Shown one piece after another: positions 26,138-30,913 of a DNA stretch of 64,000 nt. The stretch's first letter is position 1. Each line of letters begins with the position of its first letter. The DNA comes from Desulfomonile tiedjei. Lineage in GTDB: Bacteria; Desulfobacterota; Desulfomonilia; Desulfomonilales; Desulfomonilaceae. The notes below the pieces were generated by a model. The model was not told the origin of the DNA. It did not search any database and worked only from the letters and a program-made list of their open reading frames with translations. The DNA is taken from contig JACRDF010000043.1 of NCBI GenBank assembly GCA_016212925.1, positions 13,726 to 77,725 on the forward strand, given 5' to 3'. Both the position numbers and the translations under genes were made by a program.

Positions 26138-26872
26138 ATGACAGATAAGATCTGGTACGTCGTGATGGTTCCCATGGTGTACCTGGCCTTTGCCTGGTCC
26201 ATCATATGGATTGCGATCAAAATAGTCGGCATTCTGAGAGCCCCCAAACTGCCGGCCACTCTGAGGATTTTCCCCGAAGGCCTAGATTGCGAGGACACTT
26301 CGACCACCGGTTTGTCGGGCGCGATATGGGACGCGTTCACCATGCCTTCAGTCCGCAAGTACAAGCCTCTGTTGTGGGCTTTTCTCGTGATATTTCATGT
26401 AGCTGTCGTTGCCCTCATTCTGGCGCACCTCGATCTCCTCCCGCAGATCAACATTATGCCCGCGCAATCGGAGCACATGCTGGGAAACGGAGCGGTGGGC
26501 GTCATTATCACCGTATCGCTTCTATACCTGCTCTTCCGGAGGTTCCGCAGTCCTGTCCGGGAGGTATCCATCCCCGCGGACTACCTGCTGTTGGTCCTTC
26601 TCTTGGCCATCGCCGTAAGTGGTGACATCATCAGTTGGGGCAACTCGTGGACCGACAGCGGATTCGTGATGACCAAGAAAGACTTCGGCCTGTATTTGGA
26701 AAGCTTGTTCAAATTCGACTTTGCCGATCCGCGTCAATTCCTGAGCGGATCTCACTATTCGGTCATAGGTGCTCACGTGCTGCTGGTGAATCTTCTTCTG
26801 ATTTATCTTCCCTTCAGCAAGATCATGCACGTCTTCTTTGCCGTGCCGCTCAACAAACTGAGGAGAGGATGA
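26138..26872 (+). CDS. NarI-type membrane b-cytochrome subunit (HdrE/DsrM-like)
   Basis: Five predicted TM helices with conserved His residues in helices (HVAVVALILAHLD, HYSVIGAHVLLV). It overlaps the HdrD-like gene by 4 nt (ATGA). Confidence 0.55.
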   Translation: MTDKIWYVVMVPMVYLAFAWSIIWIAIKIVGILRAPKLPATLRIFPEGLDCEDTSTTGLSGAIWDAFTMPSVRKYKPLLWAFLVIFHVAVVALILAHLDLLPQINIMPAQSEHMLGNGAVGVIITVSLLYLLFRRFRSPVREVSIPADYLLLVLLLAIAVSGDIISWGNSWTDSGFVMTKKDFGLYLESLFKFDFADPRQFLSGSHYSVIGAHVLLVNLLLIYLPFSKIMHVFFAVPLNKLRRG

Positions 26873-28125
26873 CCATGGAAGACGCCCAGAAACAAAGCTT
26901 GCTGGCACTCATGGCAGAGAAACTCAATCAATCCGTACAGATGTACCTGGACAACTGCACTCGTTGCGGCACTTGCATTGACGCGTGCCACGCGTACGCG
27001 TCCACGGGTGATATCCGTTATTCAGCAGTGGGCAGGGCCCAGAATATCCGTAGGCTGTTTGAGAATTACCACAAAATTACGGGCAAGATCGCTCCGTGGC
27101 TCAATGAGGCTGTTGAACTTGACGAAAGATGGATGGACAGGGTCTACGAGACTGCGTTCACCTGTACCGGCTGCCGCCGGTGCATGACGTACTGCCCCTT
27201 CGGGATAGATACACAGCAGATCCAGTCCATTGCCAAGGCCCTGCTCATCGGCGCGGACATGGACCCCAAGCCGCTGACCATGAAGGCCAAAGCCGAAATC
27301 GCCAAGGGCGAGAACTTCGAGGCCACCAAGCAGAAATTTCAGAAAGAACTGGACAAAATACGCGGAGAGGTCTCCCAAAGATGGCCGGGTTCAGCCAAAG
27401 GCGACGTCGTTCCCATAGACGTTAAGGGAGCAAATGTGCTCTTCGTATCAATGGCCGAGAAGCCCTCCATAGTCCCTGCTGCGGGAATAATGAACGCGGC
27501 CGGCGAAAAATGGTCGTTGAGCTATTACGAGGCGGTGAACTTCGGCGCGTTTCTCGGAAGCCCCACCATGACCCAGCAGATTTACCAGCGGATAGTTTCC
27601 GAAGCAGAGGAGCTTGGCGTCAAGGAAATGGTCATCTGCGAGTGCGGGACAGCCTATCGCATCATGAAGCACGTGATCGGCAAACGAGACTTCAAGGTCA
27701 TCACCATCCTACAGCTCATAGATCGGTACCTCAAAGAAGGAAGGATAAAGCTGGACAAGTCGGTGATAGAGGGGCGAATAACCTACCATGATCCATGTCA
27801 AATCGCCCGCAACGGCGGGATCTACGAGGAGCCCCGCAATTGTCTGAAGGCCCTCACTGACGACTTTGTTGATATGAGCCCGAACCGACAGGCCAACTGG
27901 TGTTGCGGCGGCGGAGGCGGACTTGTGATAGCGCAGGAGCCGGAATTCCGCATGATGACCTCCAGGGTCAAAGTGGATCAGATAAAGGCCACTGGAGCTG
28001 ATATCGTGACGACCGCATGTGAGATGTGCTTCGCTCAGCTCAAAGATCTCAATGATGACTTCGAATTGGATTTGGAGGTAAAACTGGTTTCCGACCTGGT
28101 AGCAGACGCGCTTGTGGTAGACTAA
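26869..28125 (+). CDS. HdrD/DsrK-like Fe-S oxidoreductase (two 4Fe-4S motifs and two CCG Cys-rich domains)
   Basis: CTRCGTCIDACHAY and CTGCRRCMTYCP form the ferredoxin-like part. C-terminal CCG domains (HDPCQIARNGG..., NWCCGGGGG, TACEMCFAQ) are typical of HdrD/GlpC/DsrK. Start MTMEDAQ is at 26869. Confidence 0.75.
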   Translation: MTMEDAQKQSLLALMAEKLNQSVQMYLDNCTRCGTCIDACHAYASTGDIRYSAVGRAQNIRRLFENYHKITGKIAPWLNEAVELDERWMDRVYETAFTCTGCRRCMTYCPFGIDTQQIQSIAKALLIGADMDPKPLTMKAKAEIAKGENFEATKQKFQKELDKIRGEVSQRWPGSAKGDVVPIDVKGANVLFVSMAEKPSIVPAAGIMNAAGEKWSLSYYEAVNFGAFLGSPTMTQQIYQRIVSEAEELGVKEMVICECGTAYRIMKHVIGKRDFKVITILQLIDRYLKEGRIKLDKSVIEGRITYHDPCQIARNGGIYEEPRNCLKALTDDFVDMSPNRQANWCCGGGGGLVIAQEPEFRMMTSRVKVDQIKATGADIVTTACEMCFAQLKDLNDDFELDLEVKLVSDLVADALVVD

Positions 28126-28168
28126 TATGATGTGACTAATCACTTGCCATAATCACAAAATGAAACAC

Positions 28169-28197
28169 TTGACCTGGGGCCAGTGTCTCAGTATAAA
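28169..28197 (+). promoter_or_regulatory. Sigma70-like promoter TTGACC-N17-TATAAA ahead of the RelE-like module
   Basis: ttgacc at 28169-28174, a 17 nt spacer, tataaa at 28192-28197. The first ORF starts at 28232. Confidence 0.4.
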
Positions 28198-28231
28198 TGA
28201 CTAAGAATGCTCTGACGGAGGAGCAACAGCC

Positions 28232-28423
28232 ATGCCACAAATGAAGCGGATTGATGACGGCACATGGCCGGTCGAGCCAAAACCGACAGAAGAAAAGAAG
28301 ATGCCGGAAGAGGAATCAGAAGACTATCTCGACTACTGTGCTGCGGCTGAAGCAATAGACGAGGCACTGGAAACAGGCGAAATTCGATCGTTCGAGGATT
28401 TCGCCAAAGAAGTCGGCATTTAA
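28232..28423 (+). CDS. Small acidic protein, candidate antitoxin of the downstream RelE/ParE-like toxin
   Basis: 63 aa and highly acidic (EEESEDYLDYCAAAEAIDEALETGEIRSFEDFAKEVGI). It has a GGAG RBS and sits 8 nt upstream of the toxin gene. Confidence 0.4.
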   Translation: MPQMKRIDDGTWPVEPKPTEEKKMPEEESEDYLDYCAAAEAIDEALETGEIRSFEDFAKEVGI

Positions 28424-28431
28424 GTACCTCC

Positions 28432-28986
28432 GTGGATTATTCTCTCTACATCTTAGGCCATGCCGAGCGGGACATTAAGAAACTCAAAAAACAGCATCCA
28501 CAACTGGCCTCCAATCTAGCCGATAGAATTAGAAAATTATCTCAAAATCCTCGGCCTGAGCGCTGCCAGGCGCTGGAGGGCCAGGCAGATCTTTACCGAA
28601 TCCATTTTGGTGATGGTAAGTTTCGAATAATATACAGCATTCTAGATGACCCCCAGGCTATAATAATAGTCGCGATCAGACGGAGAAACGAGAGCACTTA
28701 CAAGAAGATTGACAGAAAAAACCTTTCGGAAAAGATCAAATCCCTTAACCTCGAATTGAAAGAAACGATAAGTATCGTTGCCGATCTGGCACGCAAGATT
28801 GGCATCGAGTGGATAGCCAATCTGGATGATGACCAAGTGAGAATTCTCGCTGGGGGCATCCAAGCGATTACGGGCGGTCGCAGTTCTCTTCCAACAATCG
28901 CAGTGCAGATTCAGGAAGCGGTCAAGGTCAAAGAAGACATCAAAACCATTACAAGGGACATGAAGCGCCTTCTACAAGAAATGTAA
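28432..28986 (+). CDS. RelE/ParE-family toxin domain (~90 aa) fused to an uncharacterised ~95 aa C-terminal extension
   Basis: The N-terminus MDYSLYILGHAERDIKKLKK...ALEGQADLYRIHFGDGKFRIIYSILDDPQAIIIVAIRRRNESTY is a RelE/ParE fold signature. Residues 95-184 are predicted helical, with no homology I recognise. Confidence 0.65.
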   Translation: MDYSLYILGHAERDIKKLKKQHPQLASNLADRIRKLSQNPRPERCQALEGQADLYRIHFGDGKFRIIYSILDDPQAIIIVAIRRRNESTYKKIDRKNLSEKIKSLNLELKETISIVADLARKIGIEWIANLDDDQVRILAGGIQAITGGRSSLPTIAVQIQEAVKVKEDIKTITRDMKRLLQEM

Positions 28987-29189
28987 GCTTTGTCAGATGA
29001 GCAATTCAGGAACCCTTCCGGACGCGGACATTTTCCGCGAAAATTTCATGCTTGAAAACGCATTCGGCGTATACATAGTGTGGCCCTTGATGCCATCCTT
29101 TTCCATTCAACCGACGGGTACCGCCCGCGCATCCTATCCCGGATGGGGACCGCAAGAATTCTCGTCCTATCCATTCCCCTAACAGAATC

Positions 29190-30053
29190 ATGCATACTTC
29201 CGGTGAAATAAGAAAGCTGTTCAAAAAGCACGGTCTTGCGCCGAAAAAATGGATGGGCCAGAACCTTCTGGTCGATGACGGTTTTCTGAAGAAGATCGTG
29301 CAGGCCGCAAGGATTGACCCCGGAGAGACAATTGTCGAGGTCGGCGCGGGTCTGGGAGTCCTCACCGAGGAACTGGCGCGACGAGGTGCGAACGTCGTAG
29401 CGCTGGAACTCGACTCAGGGTTTTTCAGTGTCCTGCAAGAAAGATTCGCGGCCTCGCATCAGGTTGAACTCATCCACGCAGATGCGATGACATTCGATTT
29501 CCAGGCCCTTGCGTCCAGGGTCGGAAAACTTCGGGTGGTAGCTAACCTGCCTTACAATATTTCCAGCCGATTGATCTTCACCTTCCTTGAACATCGAGAC
29601 CTGTTCCGGTCTTTGCACATCCTTCTTCAAAGAGAAGTCGCGGAGCGCTTTATCGCCCCACCCGGGACAAAAGACTATGGAGTTCTAACCGTGCTCTTGG
29701 GAGTAAGCTCGGCTGTGGATCTATTGTTCGACATCCCGGCTAAGGCCTTTTATCCTGTTCCTGAGGTAGTCTCCACCCTCGTCCGGGTTACCTTCCCTGA
29801 CGAGCCGCCGGTGCTGGTCGCGGACGCGCGGTTGCTCGTCGGGCTGGTGAAAGCTTCTTTCGCGGGACGCCGCAAGACCTTGAGGAACACCCTGCGTAAT
29901 TTTGCTTTGCCTGGGCTGACACCGGAATTGCTAAATGAGGCGGCAGAGGATGCGGGGATAGACCTCGGCAGGCGCGGGGAAACGCTCTCCCCGATTGAGT
30001 TTGCACGGTTTGCGGATGCCATTCACGCGAGGGTTCAAGAGCAGTTGCCCTGA
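29190..30053 (+). CDS. rsmA: 16S rRNA (adenine1518/1519-N6)-dimethyltransferase RsmA/KsgA
   Basis: WMGQNLLVDDGFLKKIV...VEVGAGLGVLTEEL...VALELD...ANLPYNISS are KsgA motifs. Confidence 0.85.
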   Translation: MHTSGEIRKLFKKHGLAPKKWMGQNLLVDDGFLKKIVQAARIDPGETIVEVGAGLGVLTEELARRGANVVALELDSGFFSVLQERFAASHQVELIHADAMTFDFQALASRVGKLRVVANLPYNISSRLIFTFLEHRDLFRSLHILLQREVAERFIAPPGTKDYGVLTVLLGVSSAVDLLFDIPAKAFYPVPEVVSTLVRVTFPDEPPVLVADARLLVGLVKASFAGRRKTLRNTLRNFALPGLTPELLNEAAEDAGIDLGRRGETLSPIEFARFADAIHARVQEQLP

Positions 30054-30320: not shown

Positions 30321-30545
30321 ATGCATATAGCGTGGCAGGATTACATAGAAAGCACGCCGGATGTACTACATGGCAAACCGCGAATCAAGAGTACAAGAAT
30401 TCCTGTAAGCCTTTTGCTCGGCTATCTTGCTGAAGGATACAGTCCCGAGCAGATTATCGGCGAGTTTCCGGATCTCAACAAAGAGCAGATTGCCGCCTGC
30501 CTGGACTATGCTCGTGATTTAGCGGAATTTGAAGTGGCAGTCTGA
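30321..30545 (+). CDS. DUF433-family small protein (putative antitoxin-like partner)
   Basis: HGKPRIKSTRIPVSLLLGYLAEGYSPEQIIGEFPDLNKEQIAACLDYA is the DUF433 signature. Its stop overlaps the start of the next gene (TGATG). Confidence 0.7.
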   Translation: MHIAWQDYIESTPDVLHGKPRIKSTRIPVSLLLGYLAEGYSPEQIIGEFPDLNKEQIAACLDYARDLAEFEVAV

Positions 30546-30913
30546 TGGGTCTAAGATTCTTTGCCGACCATTGTGTGCCCAATTCCGTCTTAAGGGCATT
30601 ACGCGATGGAGGCCATGAGGTTTTCATTCTGAAGGAGCATCTTCCACAAGATGCATCAGACTCGACCGTCATTGCCAGAGTTCAGGAATTGAATGCCATC
30701 TTGGTCTCGTTGAATGGGGACTTCGCGGATATAGTAACCTACCCGCCGTCCAATTATAAAGGTATCATTGCGATGCAAGTTAAGAATCATCCGGAGACCA
30801 TTCCGGCATTAATGCAAAGACTTATGAATTACTTCTCCGACCATCCGGAAATGACCCATTACCAGGGCAGACTCTTGGTTGTGGAACCTCATAAGATCAG
30901 GATTCGGAAATGA
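30545..30913 (+). CDS. DUF5615-family (PIN-like / Mut7-C-like nuclease fold) protein, putative toxin partner of DUF433
   Basis: MGLRFFADHCVPNSVLRALRDGGHEVFILKEHL..DASDSTVIARVQELNAILVSLNGDFAD matches DUF5615. It is translationally coupled to the DUF433 gene. Confidence 0.7.
   Translation: MGLRFFADHCVPNSVLRALRDGGHEVFILKEHLPQDASDSTVIARVQELNAILVSLNGDFADIVTYPPSNYKGIIAMQVKNHPETIPALMQRLMNYFSDHPEMTHYQGRLLVVEPHKIRIRK

What the first reader, a model, noticed from the sequence alone, without database searches (positions are those of the whole stretch)
28130..28990. RelE/ParE toxin fused to an unknown ~95 aa C-terminal domain, with an upstream acidic mini-protein and a consensus promoter
A near-consensus sigma70 promoter (TTGACC-N17-TATAAA) precedes a 63 aa highly acidic ORF, and 8 nt after its stop comes a 184 aa protein. 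Its first ~90 residues are an unmistakable RelE/ParE mRNA-interferase fold (...YRIHFGDGKFRIIYSILDDPQAIIIVAIRRRNESTY). Canonical RelE/ParE toxins are ~85-100 aa with no extension. Here about 95 extra helical residues follow (KKIDRKNLSEKIKSLNLELKETISIVADLARKIGIEW...ITRDMKRLLQEM). The upstream acidic protein does not resemble standard RelB/ParD/Phd antitoxins. This could be a new toxin-antitoxin architecture: a toxin with a fused regulatory or targeting domain, or a three-part system.
Basis: partly seen in the sequence, partly recalled or inferred. Interest (0 to 1): 0.6.

Follow-up and report, generated by a model that had tools for sequence, protein, structure and literature searches.

The report
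RelE toxin with conserved extra domain
This is a real two-gene toxin-antitoxin cassette, found so far only in Desulfomonile-like bacteria, in which an otherwise ordinary RelE-type toxin always carries an extra ~90-residue helical domain of unknown kind and is paired with an unusually small acidic antitoxin.

Summary

The C-terminal ~95 residues are not a frameshift artefact. An exhaustive search of 1.84 billion proteins found six true homologs of the extension, each directly behind RelE sequence. A profile search raised this to 14 clusters. Genome hits carrying the extension come only from Desulfomonilales MAGs.

The extension is under purifying selection (dN/dS 0.17-0.46). With an alignment it models confidently (pLDDT 91) as a five-helix domain. 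It has no significant match in Pfam, NCBIfam, PHROGs, PADLOC, PDB or BFVD.

Every locus examined (9 of 9) has the conserved MPQMKRI... mini-protein immediately upstream, and the flanking genes differ between loci. The promoter is conserved across loci. No third gene is conserved.

The mini-antitoxin has a weak RelB C-terminal resemblance and no DNA-binding domain. I therefore infer, without a test, that the toxin's extra domain supplies the assembly or operator-binding role. This is a new variant of a known kind, of moderate interest.

The parts
28162..28197 (+). Promoter region. It contains the conserved block GAAACACTTGAC, the -35 hexamer TTGACC (28169-28174), a 17 nt spacer and the -10 hexamer TATAAA (28192-28197).
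   Evidence: Read directly from the sequence. The match is unique in the window, with 0.05 expected by chance. The -35 and -10 blocks and their flanks are conserved upstream of homologous cassettes in L009, L010, L003 and L007. No clean inverted repeat was found.
28217..28223 (+). Shine-Dalgarno GGAGGAG for the small ORF.
   Evidence: Read from the sequence. AGGAG is invariant in the alignment of seven loci.
28232..28423 (+). Putative antitoxin of 63 aa, acidic (net charge -12, pI 4.1). It has a conserved N-terminal MPQMKRI motif, a variable proline-rich linker, and a conserved acidic C-terminal half with a weak RelB-like match.
   Evidence: ORF. NCBIfam RelB_antitoxin E 0.0027, below threshold. 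Orthologs of 63-65 aa lie immediately upstream of every homologous toxin, with 56-68% identity and 21 invariant positions. dN/dS 0.07-0.18. No Pfam, PDB, PHROGs or PADLOC hit.
28432..28701 (+). Toxin residues 1-90: the RelE/ParE (BECR) fold domain.
28702..28986 (+). Toxin residues 91-184 plus the stop codon: a conserved C-terminal extension. After a short linker come five helices (95-123, 126-129, 133-147, 153-164, 170-183).
   Evidence: Homologs occur only behind RelE sequence. AlphaFold2 pLDDT 83-97. dN/dS 0.17-0.46. Mean pairwise identity is 48%, against 56% for the RelE domain. No significant match in Pfam, NCBIfam, PADLOC, PHROGs, PDB sequence, PDB fold, BFVD, plasmids or phages.

Best explanation
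This is a mobile two-gene type II toxin-antitoxin cassette of the RelBE kind, transcribed from its own sigma70-type promoter.

Toxin domain. The N-terminal 90 residues of the 184 aa protein are a RelE-type domain. By homology they would cut mRNA in the ribosomal A site. This is inferred from family membership and retained catalytic positions and was not shown here.

Antitoxin. The 63 aa acidic protein is the antitoxin. It is reduced to a RelB-like toxin-binding segment plus a short conserved N-terminal motif, and it has no DNA-binding or dimerisation domain.

Extension. The toxin's conserved five-helix C-terminal domain is a previously undescribed domain that occurs only fused to this RelE lineage. 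My preferred mechanism is that it takes over the job normally done by the antitoxin's N-terminal domain. That job would be to hold the complex together as a dimer or higher oligomer, probably docking the antitoxin's MPQMKRI motif, and to bind the conserved promoter region so that the operon is autoregulated.

Confidence by step. Real conserved fusion: about 0.95. Type II RelBE-like TA pair: about 0.85. Extension as assembly or operator-binding module: about 0.35.
For: Fusion real and selected. An exhaustive phmmer search with residues 90-184 against 1.84 billion representatives gave six true homologs, each preceded by RelE sequence (...RRRNEGTYK...). A profile search gave 14 extension-bearing clusters. 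The reading frame is continuous in window, L009, L010, L003, L002 and L033. dN/dS of the extension is 0.17-0.46. An independent Logan assembly carries the identical gene.

RelE identity. Catalytic-position equivalents.

Antitoxin. A 63-68 aa ORF beginning MPQMK lies immediately upstream, with a 2-8 nt gap or an overlap, in 9 of 9 loci. Flanking genes differ in every locus. It is acidic, pI 4.1-4.8, and has a weak RelB C-terminal match.

Missing DNA-binding domain. No RHH, HTH, AbrB or Phd hit was found. By contrast, a canonical-length relative (P0024, 89 aa) is paired with a 96 aa antitoxin. That antitoxin has an N-terminal segment with weak RHH-type hits (RH3_dom E 0.007, ParG E 0.09) and an acidic tail.

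Promoter. It is conserved between loci beyond the two hexamers.

Precedents. The 15 aa C-terminal helix of PfiT governs TA complex stoichiometry and repression (PMC13048266). Ternary ParE systems use antitoxins without a DNA-binding domain plus a separate regulator (same paper).
Against: Nothing tested here shows DNA binding or oligomerisation.

Three members (P0016, P0006, and P0017, whose C-terminal end is itself divergent) have zero net charge in the extension.

No clean palindromic operator was found in the promoter regions.

The RelB-like match of the antitoxin is below the family threshold, and a profile of seven antitoxins finds nothing in the PDB.

The RelE K52 equivalent (R56) is proline in two members, and TIGR02385 RelE_StbE scores 23.4 bits against a cut-off of 27.9.

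I could not inspect inter-domain contacts of the model, so I cannot exclude that the extension covers the active site.
Confidence: 0.4

Rival explanations
1. The extension is purely a protein-protein module. It docks the antitoxin's conserved N-terminal motif or builds higher-order toxin-antitoxin assemblies, like a much enlarged version of the PfiT C-terminal helix. It does not bind DNA, and the operon is either not autoregulated or is regulated in trans.
For: PfiT is a precedent. The antitoxin has a second conserved segment (MPQMKRI) that was absent from the two canonical relatives' antitoxins read. Helix 95-123 is long enough to be a possible coiled-coil or dimer interface. There is no HTH signal and no palindrome. 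Net charge is near zero in some members.
Against: This does not explain the conservation of sequence around the promoter hexamers. It also leaves open how a DBD-less antitoxin operon is controlled. No oligomer prediction could be run.
Confidence: 0.3
2. The extension is a targeting or sensing domain. It would direct the RelE nuclease to a particular RNA, ribosome state or cellular partner. Alternatively it would sense a trigger such as a phage protein that releases the toxin, as in defence-type TA systems.
For: Multidomain RelE/ParE-fold toxins with defence-like contexts are known (Gerdes 2025, PMC11980606). Cami1, a CARF-RelE fusion, appears among the fold hits. The cassette sits next to other TA pairs in window and in L002.
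Against: PADLOC and PHROGs give no hit. No defence genes are conserved nearby. The marginal RNA-binding lead, Snu13/L7Ae at E 1.2, vanished when a 13-sequence profile was used.
Confidence: 0.17
3. The extension is a cis-acting antitoxin or autoinhibitory domain, making this a toxin-antitoxin fusion like RelE-YiaG, HigB-HigA or gp49-HTH. The upstream small protein would then be an accessory factor.
For: C-terminal antitoxin fusions are the commonest multidomain RelE/ParE architecture, with 195 genes listed. pTM 0.79 suggests the two domains pack in a fixed arrangement.
Against: No XRE/HTH, ParD, Phd or other antitoxin family hit was found in any of 13 members. A separate, strongly conserved, acidic protein with a weak RelB-like match is always present upstream. 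The described fusions are single-gene modules.
Confidence: 0.08
4. The long ORF is an artefact: a frameshift, an assembly error, or a recent accidental merger of a RelE gene with a downstream gene.
For: Some family members are clearly damaged: L005 and L007 have frameshifts, L006 carries a VapC-RelE chimera, and the C-terminal end of P0017 diverges.
Against: The same architecture is intact in at least six independent loci at 44-57% identity to this one. The extension is never found alone. It is under purifying selection. The identical sequence occurs in a second assembly.
Confidence: 0.02

Closest known systems
RelBE type II toxin-antitoxin systems (E. coli RelBE, M. tuberculosis RelBE1/2, archaeal aRelBE of Pyrococcus horikoshii)
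   Different: The toxin is twice the usual length because of a conserved 90-residue helical domain. The antitoxin has no recognisable DNA-binding or dimerisation domain. The K52 and K54 equivalents are R and H, or P and Y in some members.
PfiT/PfiA of Pseudomonas Pf4 prophage (ParE/RelE superfamily toxin with a C-terminal extension; PMC13048266)
   Same: This is a RelE/ParE-fold toxin whose extra C-terminal helix is needed for the stoichiometry of the TA complex and so for repression. PfiT is also among the fold hits.
   Different: The PfiT extension is one helix of about 15 residues, whereas here it is a five-helix domain of about 90 residues. PfiA has its own DNA-binding domain and the mini-antitoxin here does not. 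Short-extension relatives do exist (P0019 at 109 aa, P0020) and may be intermediates.
Toxin-antitoxin gene fusions of the RelE/ParE superfamily (RelE-YiaG, HigB-HigA, gp49-HTH; Gerdes 2025, PMC11980606)
   Same: An N-terminal BECR-fold toxin domain is followed by a helical C-terminal domain in one polypeptide.
   Different: In those fusions the C-terminal part is a recognisable XRE-type HTH antitoxin and the module is a single gene. Here the C-terminal domain matches no antitoxin or HTH family, and a separate conserved antitoxin-like gene is always present.
Three-component ParE systems (PaaR2-PaaA2-ParE2)
   Same: The antitoxin lacks a DNA-binding domain, so regulation must come from another polypeptide or domain (as summarised in PMC13048266).
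   Different: That system uses a separate regulator gene. No third gene is conserved here, and the extra function, if there is one, would be fused to the toxin.

Membership tests
RelE/ParE superfamily toxin (Pfam PF05016; BECR fold) | Sequence match above the curated family threshold | tested here: met
   PF05016 scores 40.3 bits against a cut-off of 23, E 4.7e-10, residues 11-87. PHROG 1213 'RelE-like toxin' E 6.4e-14.
RelE/ParE superfamily toxin (Pfam PF05016; BECR fold) | RelE-type alpha/beta fold | tested here: met
RelE subfamily (ribosome-dependent mRNA endonuclease) as opposed to ParE (gyrase inhibitor) | Basic and aromatic catalytic residues equivalent to E. coli RelE K52, K54, R61, R81 and Y87 (residue roles taken from established RelE literature, from my own knowledge) | tested here: inconclusive
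   In the HMMER alignment to E. coli RelE, R65 aligns with R61 and R85 with R81. Y90 lies one position from Y87. R56 aligns with K52 and H58 with K54. R83 and Y90 are invariant in 25 sequences, but position 56 is P in two members. NCBIfam RelE_StbE TIGR02385 scores 23.4 bits, below its cut-off of 27.9. PF05016 itself does not separate RelE from ParE (PMC11980606).
RelE subfamily (ribosome-dependent mRNA endonuclease) as opposed to ParE (gyrase inhibitor) | Toxicity and ribosome-dependent mRNA cleavage | not testable with these tools
   Needs expression and cleavage assays.
Type II toxin-antitoxin module | Adjacent co-oriented small gene that is co-conserved with the toxin | tested here: met
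   A 63-68 aa MPQMK... ORF lies immediately upstream in 9 of 9 loci, with unrelated flanking genes.
Type II toxin-antitoxin module | Antitoxin belongs to a recognised antitoxin family | tested here: inconclusive
   The only hit is a sub-threshold one to NCBIfam RelB_antitoxin: 18 bits against a cut-off of 50, E 0.0027, found in 2 of 4 members scanned. Pfam, PDB, PHROGs and PADLOC give nothing.
Type II toxin-antitoxin module | Antitoxin carries a DNA-binding domain that autoregulates the operon | tested here: not met
   No RHH, HTH, AbrB or Phd domain was detectable. The protein is 63 aa with pI 4.1 and has a variable proline-rich segment between its two conserved parts.
Toxin-antitoxin single-gene fusions (RelE-YiaG / HigB-HigA / gp49-HTH) | C-terminal domain is a recognisable antitoxin or XRE-HTH domain | tested here: not met
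   All 13 extensions were scanned against Pfam at E up to 10. Only scattered, inconsistent hits with E of 0.009 or higher appeared, and no HTH_3/XRE. The profile against PDB sequences gave nothing below E 1.4.
Toxin-antitoxin single-gene fusions (RelE-YiaG / HigB-HigA / gp49-HTH) | No separate antitoxin gene (monocistronic module) | tested here: not met
   A conserved upstream gene is always present (calls as above).
Three-component TA systems (e.g. PaaR2-PaaA2-ParE2) | A conserved third gene encoding a regulator or chaperone | tested here: not met
   The neighbours differ in every locus. Here they are a CCG/Fe-S oxidoreductase and rsmA. Elsewhere they include MerR and Phd genes, ribosomal protein genes, ABC transporter genes and others.

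The most novel reading that the evidence does not exclude
This would be a type II toxin-antitoxin system in which the division of labour is inverted. The antitoxin is reduced to a bare neutralising peptide. The toxin polypeptide carries a new, lineage-specific helical domain that dimerises the complex and binds the operator. Autoregulation, and perhaps conditional cooperativity, would then be wired through the toxin rather than the antitoxin. The extension would also define a new protein domain family with no detectable relative in current sequence or structure libraries.
Probability: 0.25. Interest if true: 0.6.

Novelty: new variant of a known kind. Interest (0 to 1): 0.4.

Why it matters
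RelE/ParE toxins are the textbook single-domain toxins. Recent surveys of multidomain members found mainly toxin-antitoxin fusions and set aside small families (PMC11980606).

Here a small family (14 clusters among 5.8 billion) shows a stable, selected fusion of RelE to an unknown domain. It is coupled to loss of every recognisable regulatory domain from the antitoxin.

If the extension proves to be the assembly or operator-binding module, it would show that the regulatory half of a type II system can migrate from antitoxin to toxin. It would also add a new domain family.

If it is only a scaffold, this is a modest elaboration of what PfiT already shows. Either way the biology is confined, so far, to uncultured Desulfomonilales, so the impact is limited.

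Tried and rejected
1. Frameshift or gene-merger artefact. Rejected on the conserved continuous ORF in at least six loci, purifying selection, and a second assembly with the identical gene.

3. DUF4226 (PF10774, E 0.068-0.077). Seen in one member only, so rejected.

4. Single-sequence AlphaFold2 gave a useless model with pLDDT 40. The run with an alignment succeeded.

6. Word-indexed protein searches found only the protein itself or nothing. The exhaustive search was needed to find homologs.

7. The metagenome contig scan returned only canonical-length relatives. Plasmid and phage collections gave nothing for the extension.

8. An inverted-repeat search in seven promoter regions found no shared palindrome.

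9. A profile comparison of the mini-antitoxin with the longer antitoxin of a canonical relative was not significant.

10. The supplements of Gerdes 2025 contain no Desulfomonile entries.

Full report
**What is in the sequence.**

Between a CCG-domain Fe-S oxidoreductase gene (26635-28125) and rsmA (29190-30053) lie two co-oriented ORFs.

- The first is a 63 aa ORF at 28232-28423. It has an ATG start preceded by GGAGGAG, a net charge of -12 and a pI of 4.1.
- The second starts 8 nt after the first's stop codon. It is a 184 aa ORF at 28432-28986 with a GTG start. Homologs begin at the same aligned position, which supports that start.
- Upstream is TTGACC (28169-28174), a 17 nt spacer, then TATAAA (28192-28197). 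The core pattern occurs once in the 64 kb window against 0.05 expected. The generic scanner missed it only because the -10 hexamer ends in A.
- GC content falls to 0.40-0.49 across the cassette, against about 0.51-0.59 in the flanking genes. This fits horizontal acquisition.
- One source names the protein a RelE/ParE family toxin of a Desulfomonile tiedjei MAG. The identical gene and neighbours occur in an independent Logan assembly.

**The N-terminal half is a RelE-type toxin.**

- Pfam ParE_toxin PF05016 matches residues 11-87 at E 4.7e-10, above threshold.
- The best solved-structure sequence match is E. coli RelE, E 2e-6.
- PF05016 does not distinguish RelE from ParE, and E. coli RelE itself sits in that family (PMC11980606).
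- In the alignment to E. coli RelE, R65 matches R61 and R85 matches R81, and Y90 lies one position from Y87. R83 and Y90 are invariant across the family.
- I therefore assign an mRNA-interferase activity by homology. TIGR02385 is just below its cut-off, and the K52 equivalent is not strictly conserved.

**The extension is real, conserved and only ever fused.**

- The word-indexed searches found nothing beyond the protein itself.
- An exhaustive phmmer search with residues 90-184 against 1.84 billion representatives found six genuine homologs, E 5e-19 to 5e-10. The three further hits were repeat-rich proteins, with the match confined to short or repeated segments.
- In every genuine homolog the extension follows RelE sequence through the junction ...RRRNEGTYK....
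- A profile search raised the family to 14 extension-bearing clusters among 5.77 billion.
- Canonical relatives of 89-97 aa end right at ...RRRNEGTYRDVERLF.
- Two relatives, P0019 (109 aa) and P0020, carry only the first conserved stretch of the extension (IPxxxLSDKI...). They look like intermediates.
- A scan of one genome per species found extension-bearing copies only in Desulfomonilales/Desulfomonilaceae MAGs and in one 'uncultured delta proteobacterium' MAG that carries two copies.
- Across full-length members the extension is 48% identical on average, against 56% for the RelE domain.
- Nei-Gojobori dN/dS for the extension is 0.17-0.46 in unsaturated pairs. The RelE domain gives 0.08-0.36 and the small ORF 0.07-0.18.

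**What the extension looks like.**

- The model has a short linker (residues 85-94, pLDDT about 80) and then helices 95-123, 126-129, 133-147, 153-164 and 170-183, with pLDDT 87-97.
- No family matches it. This holds for Pfam, NCBIfam, PADLOC and PHROGs, and for PDB sequences searched with one sequence or a 13-sequence profile. It also holds for plasmids and phages and for BFVD.
- An intriguing colinear hit to Snu13/L7Ae at E 1.2 was not reproduced by the profile, so I drop it.
- The domain is mildly basic, with net charge 0 to +7.
- Its invariant or near-invariant polar residues include R137, R150, S152, D176 and R179.

**The small upstream protein.**

- In all nine loci where neighbours could be read, a 63-68 aa ORF beginning MPQMK (MTQMK in one locus) sits immediately upstream. 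The gap is 2-8 nt, or the ORFs overlap. The surrounding genes are unrelated from locus to locus, so this is a mobile two-gene unit with no conserved third gene.
- Seven orthologs share 21 invariant positions in two blocks, residues 1-9 and 24-62. A variable proline-rich linker separates the blocks.
- The C-terminal block has a sub-threshold match to the toxin-binding end of NCBIfam RelB_antitoxin, E 0.0027. Nothing else matches.
- There is no room for, and no sign of, an RHH, HTH, AbrB or Phd DNA-binding domain.
- By contrast, the canonical-length relative P0024 is preceded by a 96 aa protein. Its N-terminus looks ribbon-helix-helix-like (weak RH3_dom and ParG hits), and an acidic tail follows.

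**Promoter conservation.**

An alignment of the seven upstream regions shows conservation of GAAACACTTGAC (the -35 hexamer and its flank) and of TGTCnCAGTATAAG (the -10 hexamer and its flank) in five loci, plus the AGGAG Shine-Dalgarno in all seven. No clean inverted repeat was detected. A protein-binding operator is therefore plausible but not demonstrated.

**Mechanism.**

- Shown here: the architecture, its conservation, selection on all three parts, the RelE fold, and the absence of known domains in the extension and in the antitoxin's N-terminal part.
- Inferred from family knowledge: the RelE domain cleaves ribosome-bound mRNA, and the acidic protein neutralises it by binding.
- Inferred with lower confidence, about 0.35: the extension replaces the missing antitoxin N-terminal domain. 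It would dimerise or oligomerise the complex, possibly dock the MPQMKRI motif, and bind the conserved promoter.
- Precedents for parts of this idea: the 15 aa C-terminal helix of PfiT sets complex stoichiometry and repression, and ternary ParE systems have DBD-less antitoxins with a separate regulator (PMC13048266).
- Rivals: a pure protein-protein scaffold (0.3), a targeting or sensing domain (0.17), a cis-antitoxin fusion of the kind catalogued by Gerdes 2025 (0.08), and an artefact (0.02).

**Comparison and novelty.**

The module works like RelBE and passes the fold, sequence and gene-organisation tests for the RelE/ParE superfamily and for a type II pair. It fails the 'antitoxin with DNA-binding domain' feature. 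It fails both defining features of the known toxin-antitoxin fusions and the third-gene feature of tripartite systems.

The 2025 survey of multidomain RelE/ParE toxins explicitly left out small families, and its supplements contain no Desulfomonile entries. I therefore rate this a new variant of a known kind. The extension is an apparently undescribed domain, but the system's logic is familiar and its distribution is narrow. Interest is 0.4.

**Limits.**

- AFDB fold libraries were unavailable.
- Inter-domain contacts of the model could not be inspected.
- All functional statements about activity, neutralisation and regulation are untested.

Noticed in passing
window 30321-30913 (+); L002 4587-5194: A second toxin-antitoxin-like pair lies 1.3 kb downstream, just after rsmA. 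It consists of a DUF433 protein (74 aa) and a PIN_10/DUF5615 protein (122 aa). The same kind of pair, plus a Phd/YefM gene, also follows the homologous cassette in L002. This suggests that these cassettes gather in small TA islands.
   Followed up: partly
L005 3985-4170; L007 3755-4030 (same place as L012); L006 3770-4483 (same place as L013); P0017 C-terminal end: Several family members are damaged in the RelE part while the extension remains an open frame. L005 has a 1-nt frameshift at about codon 33 (P0011, seen on 4 contigs). L007 has a frameshift in mid-RelE. In L006 a VapC (PIN) gene fragment is fused in frame to the last RelE strand plus the extension. P0017 diverges in the last 40 residues. 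These could be real decay or long-read indel errors.
   Followed up: partly
P0019 (109 aa) and P0020 (67 aa fragment), JGI and NCBI metagenome proteins: These relatives carry only the first conserved stretch of the extension (IPxxxLSDKIxELE) after the RelE core. They may be evolutionary intermediates between 97 aa canonical toxins and the 184 aa form, comparable in size to the PfiT extra helix.
   Followed up: no
L021 1454-2294: A canonical 97 aa relative (P0021) is preceded by, and overlaps, a 191 aa ORF. That ORF has a very weak PD-(D/E)XK endonuclease-like N-terminal part (PDDEXK_5, E 0.15) and an acidic C-terminal tail that looks like an antitoxin toxin-binding segment. If real, this is an unusual antitoxin architecture.
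   Followed up: no
window 28000-29000: GC content drops to 0.40-0.49 across the cassette, against about 0.51-0.59 in the neighbouring oxidoreductase and rsmA genes. This is consistent with insertion of foreign DNA between two housekeeping genes.
   Followed up: no
window 29024-29038 (+): A short hairpin, GCGGA-CATTT-TCCGC, lies 38 nt after the toxin stop codon and is followed by GAAAATTTC. It might be a weak terminator. The terminator scan did not call it, and I did not fold it.
   Followed up: no
window 26138-28125 (+); L001 1087-3746: The genes upstream are a PocR-domain protein, a Nitrate_red_gam (DsrM/NarI-like) membrane protein and a CCG/4Fe-4S protein (DsrK/HdrD-like). This is typical Desulfobacterota energy metabolism and appears unrelated to the cassette.
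   Followed up: no
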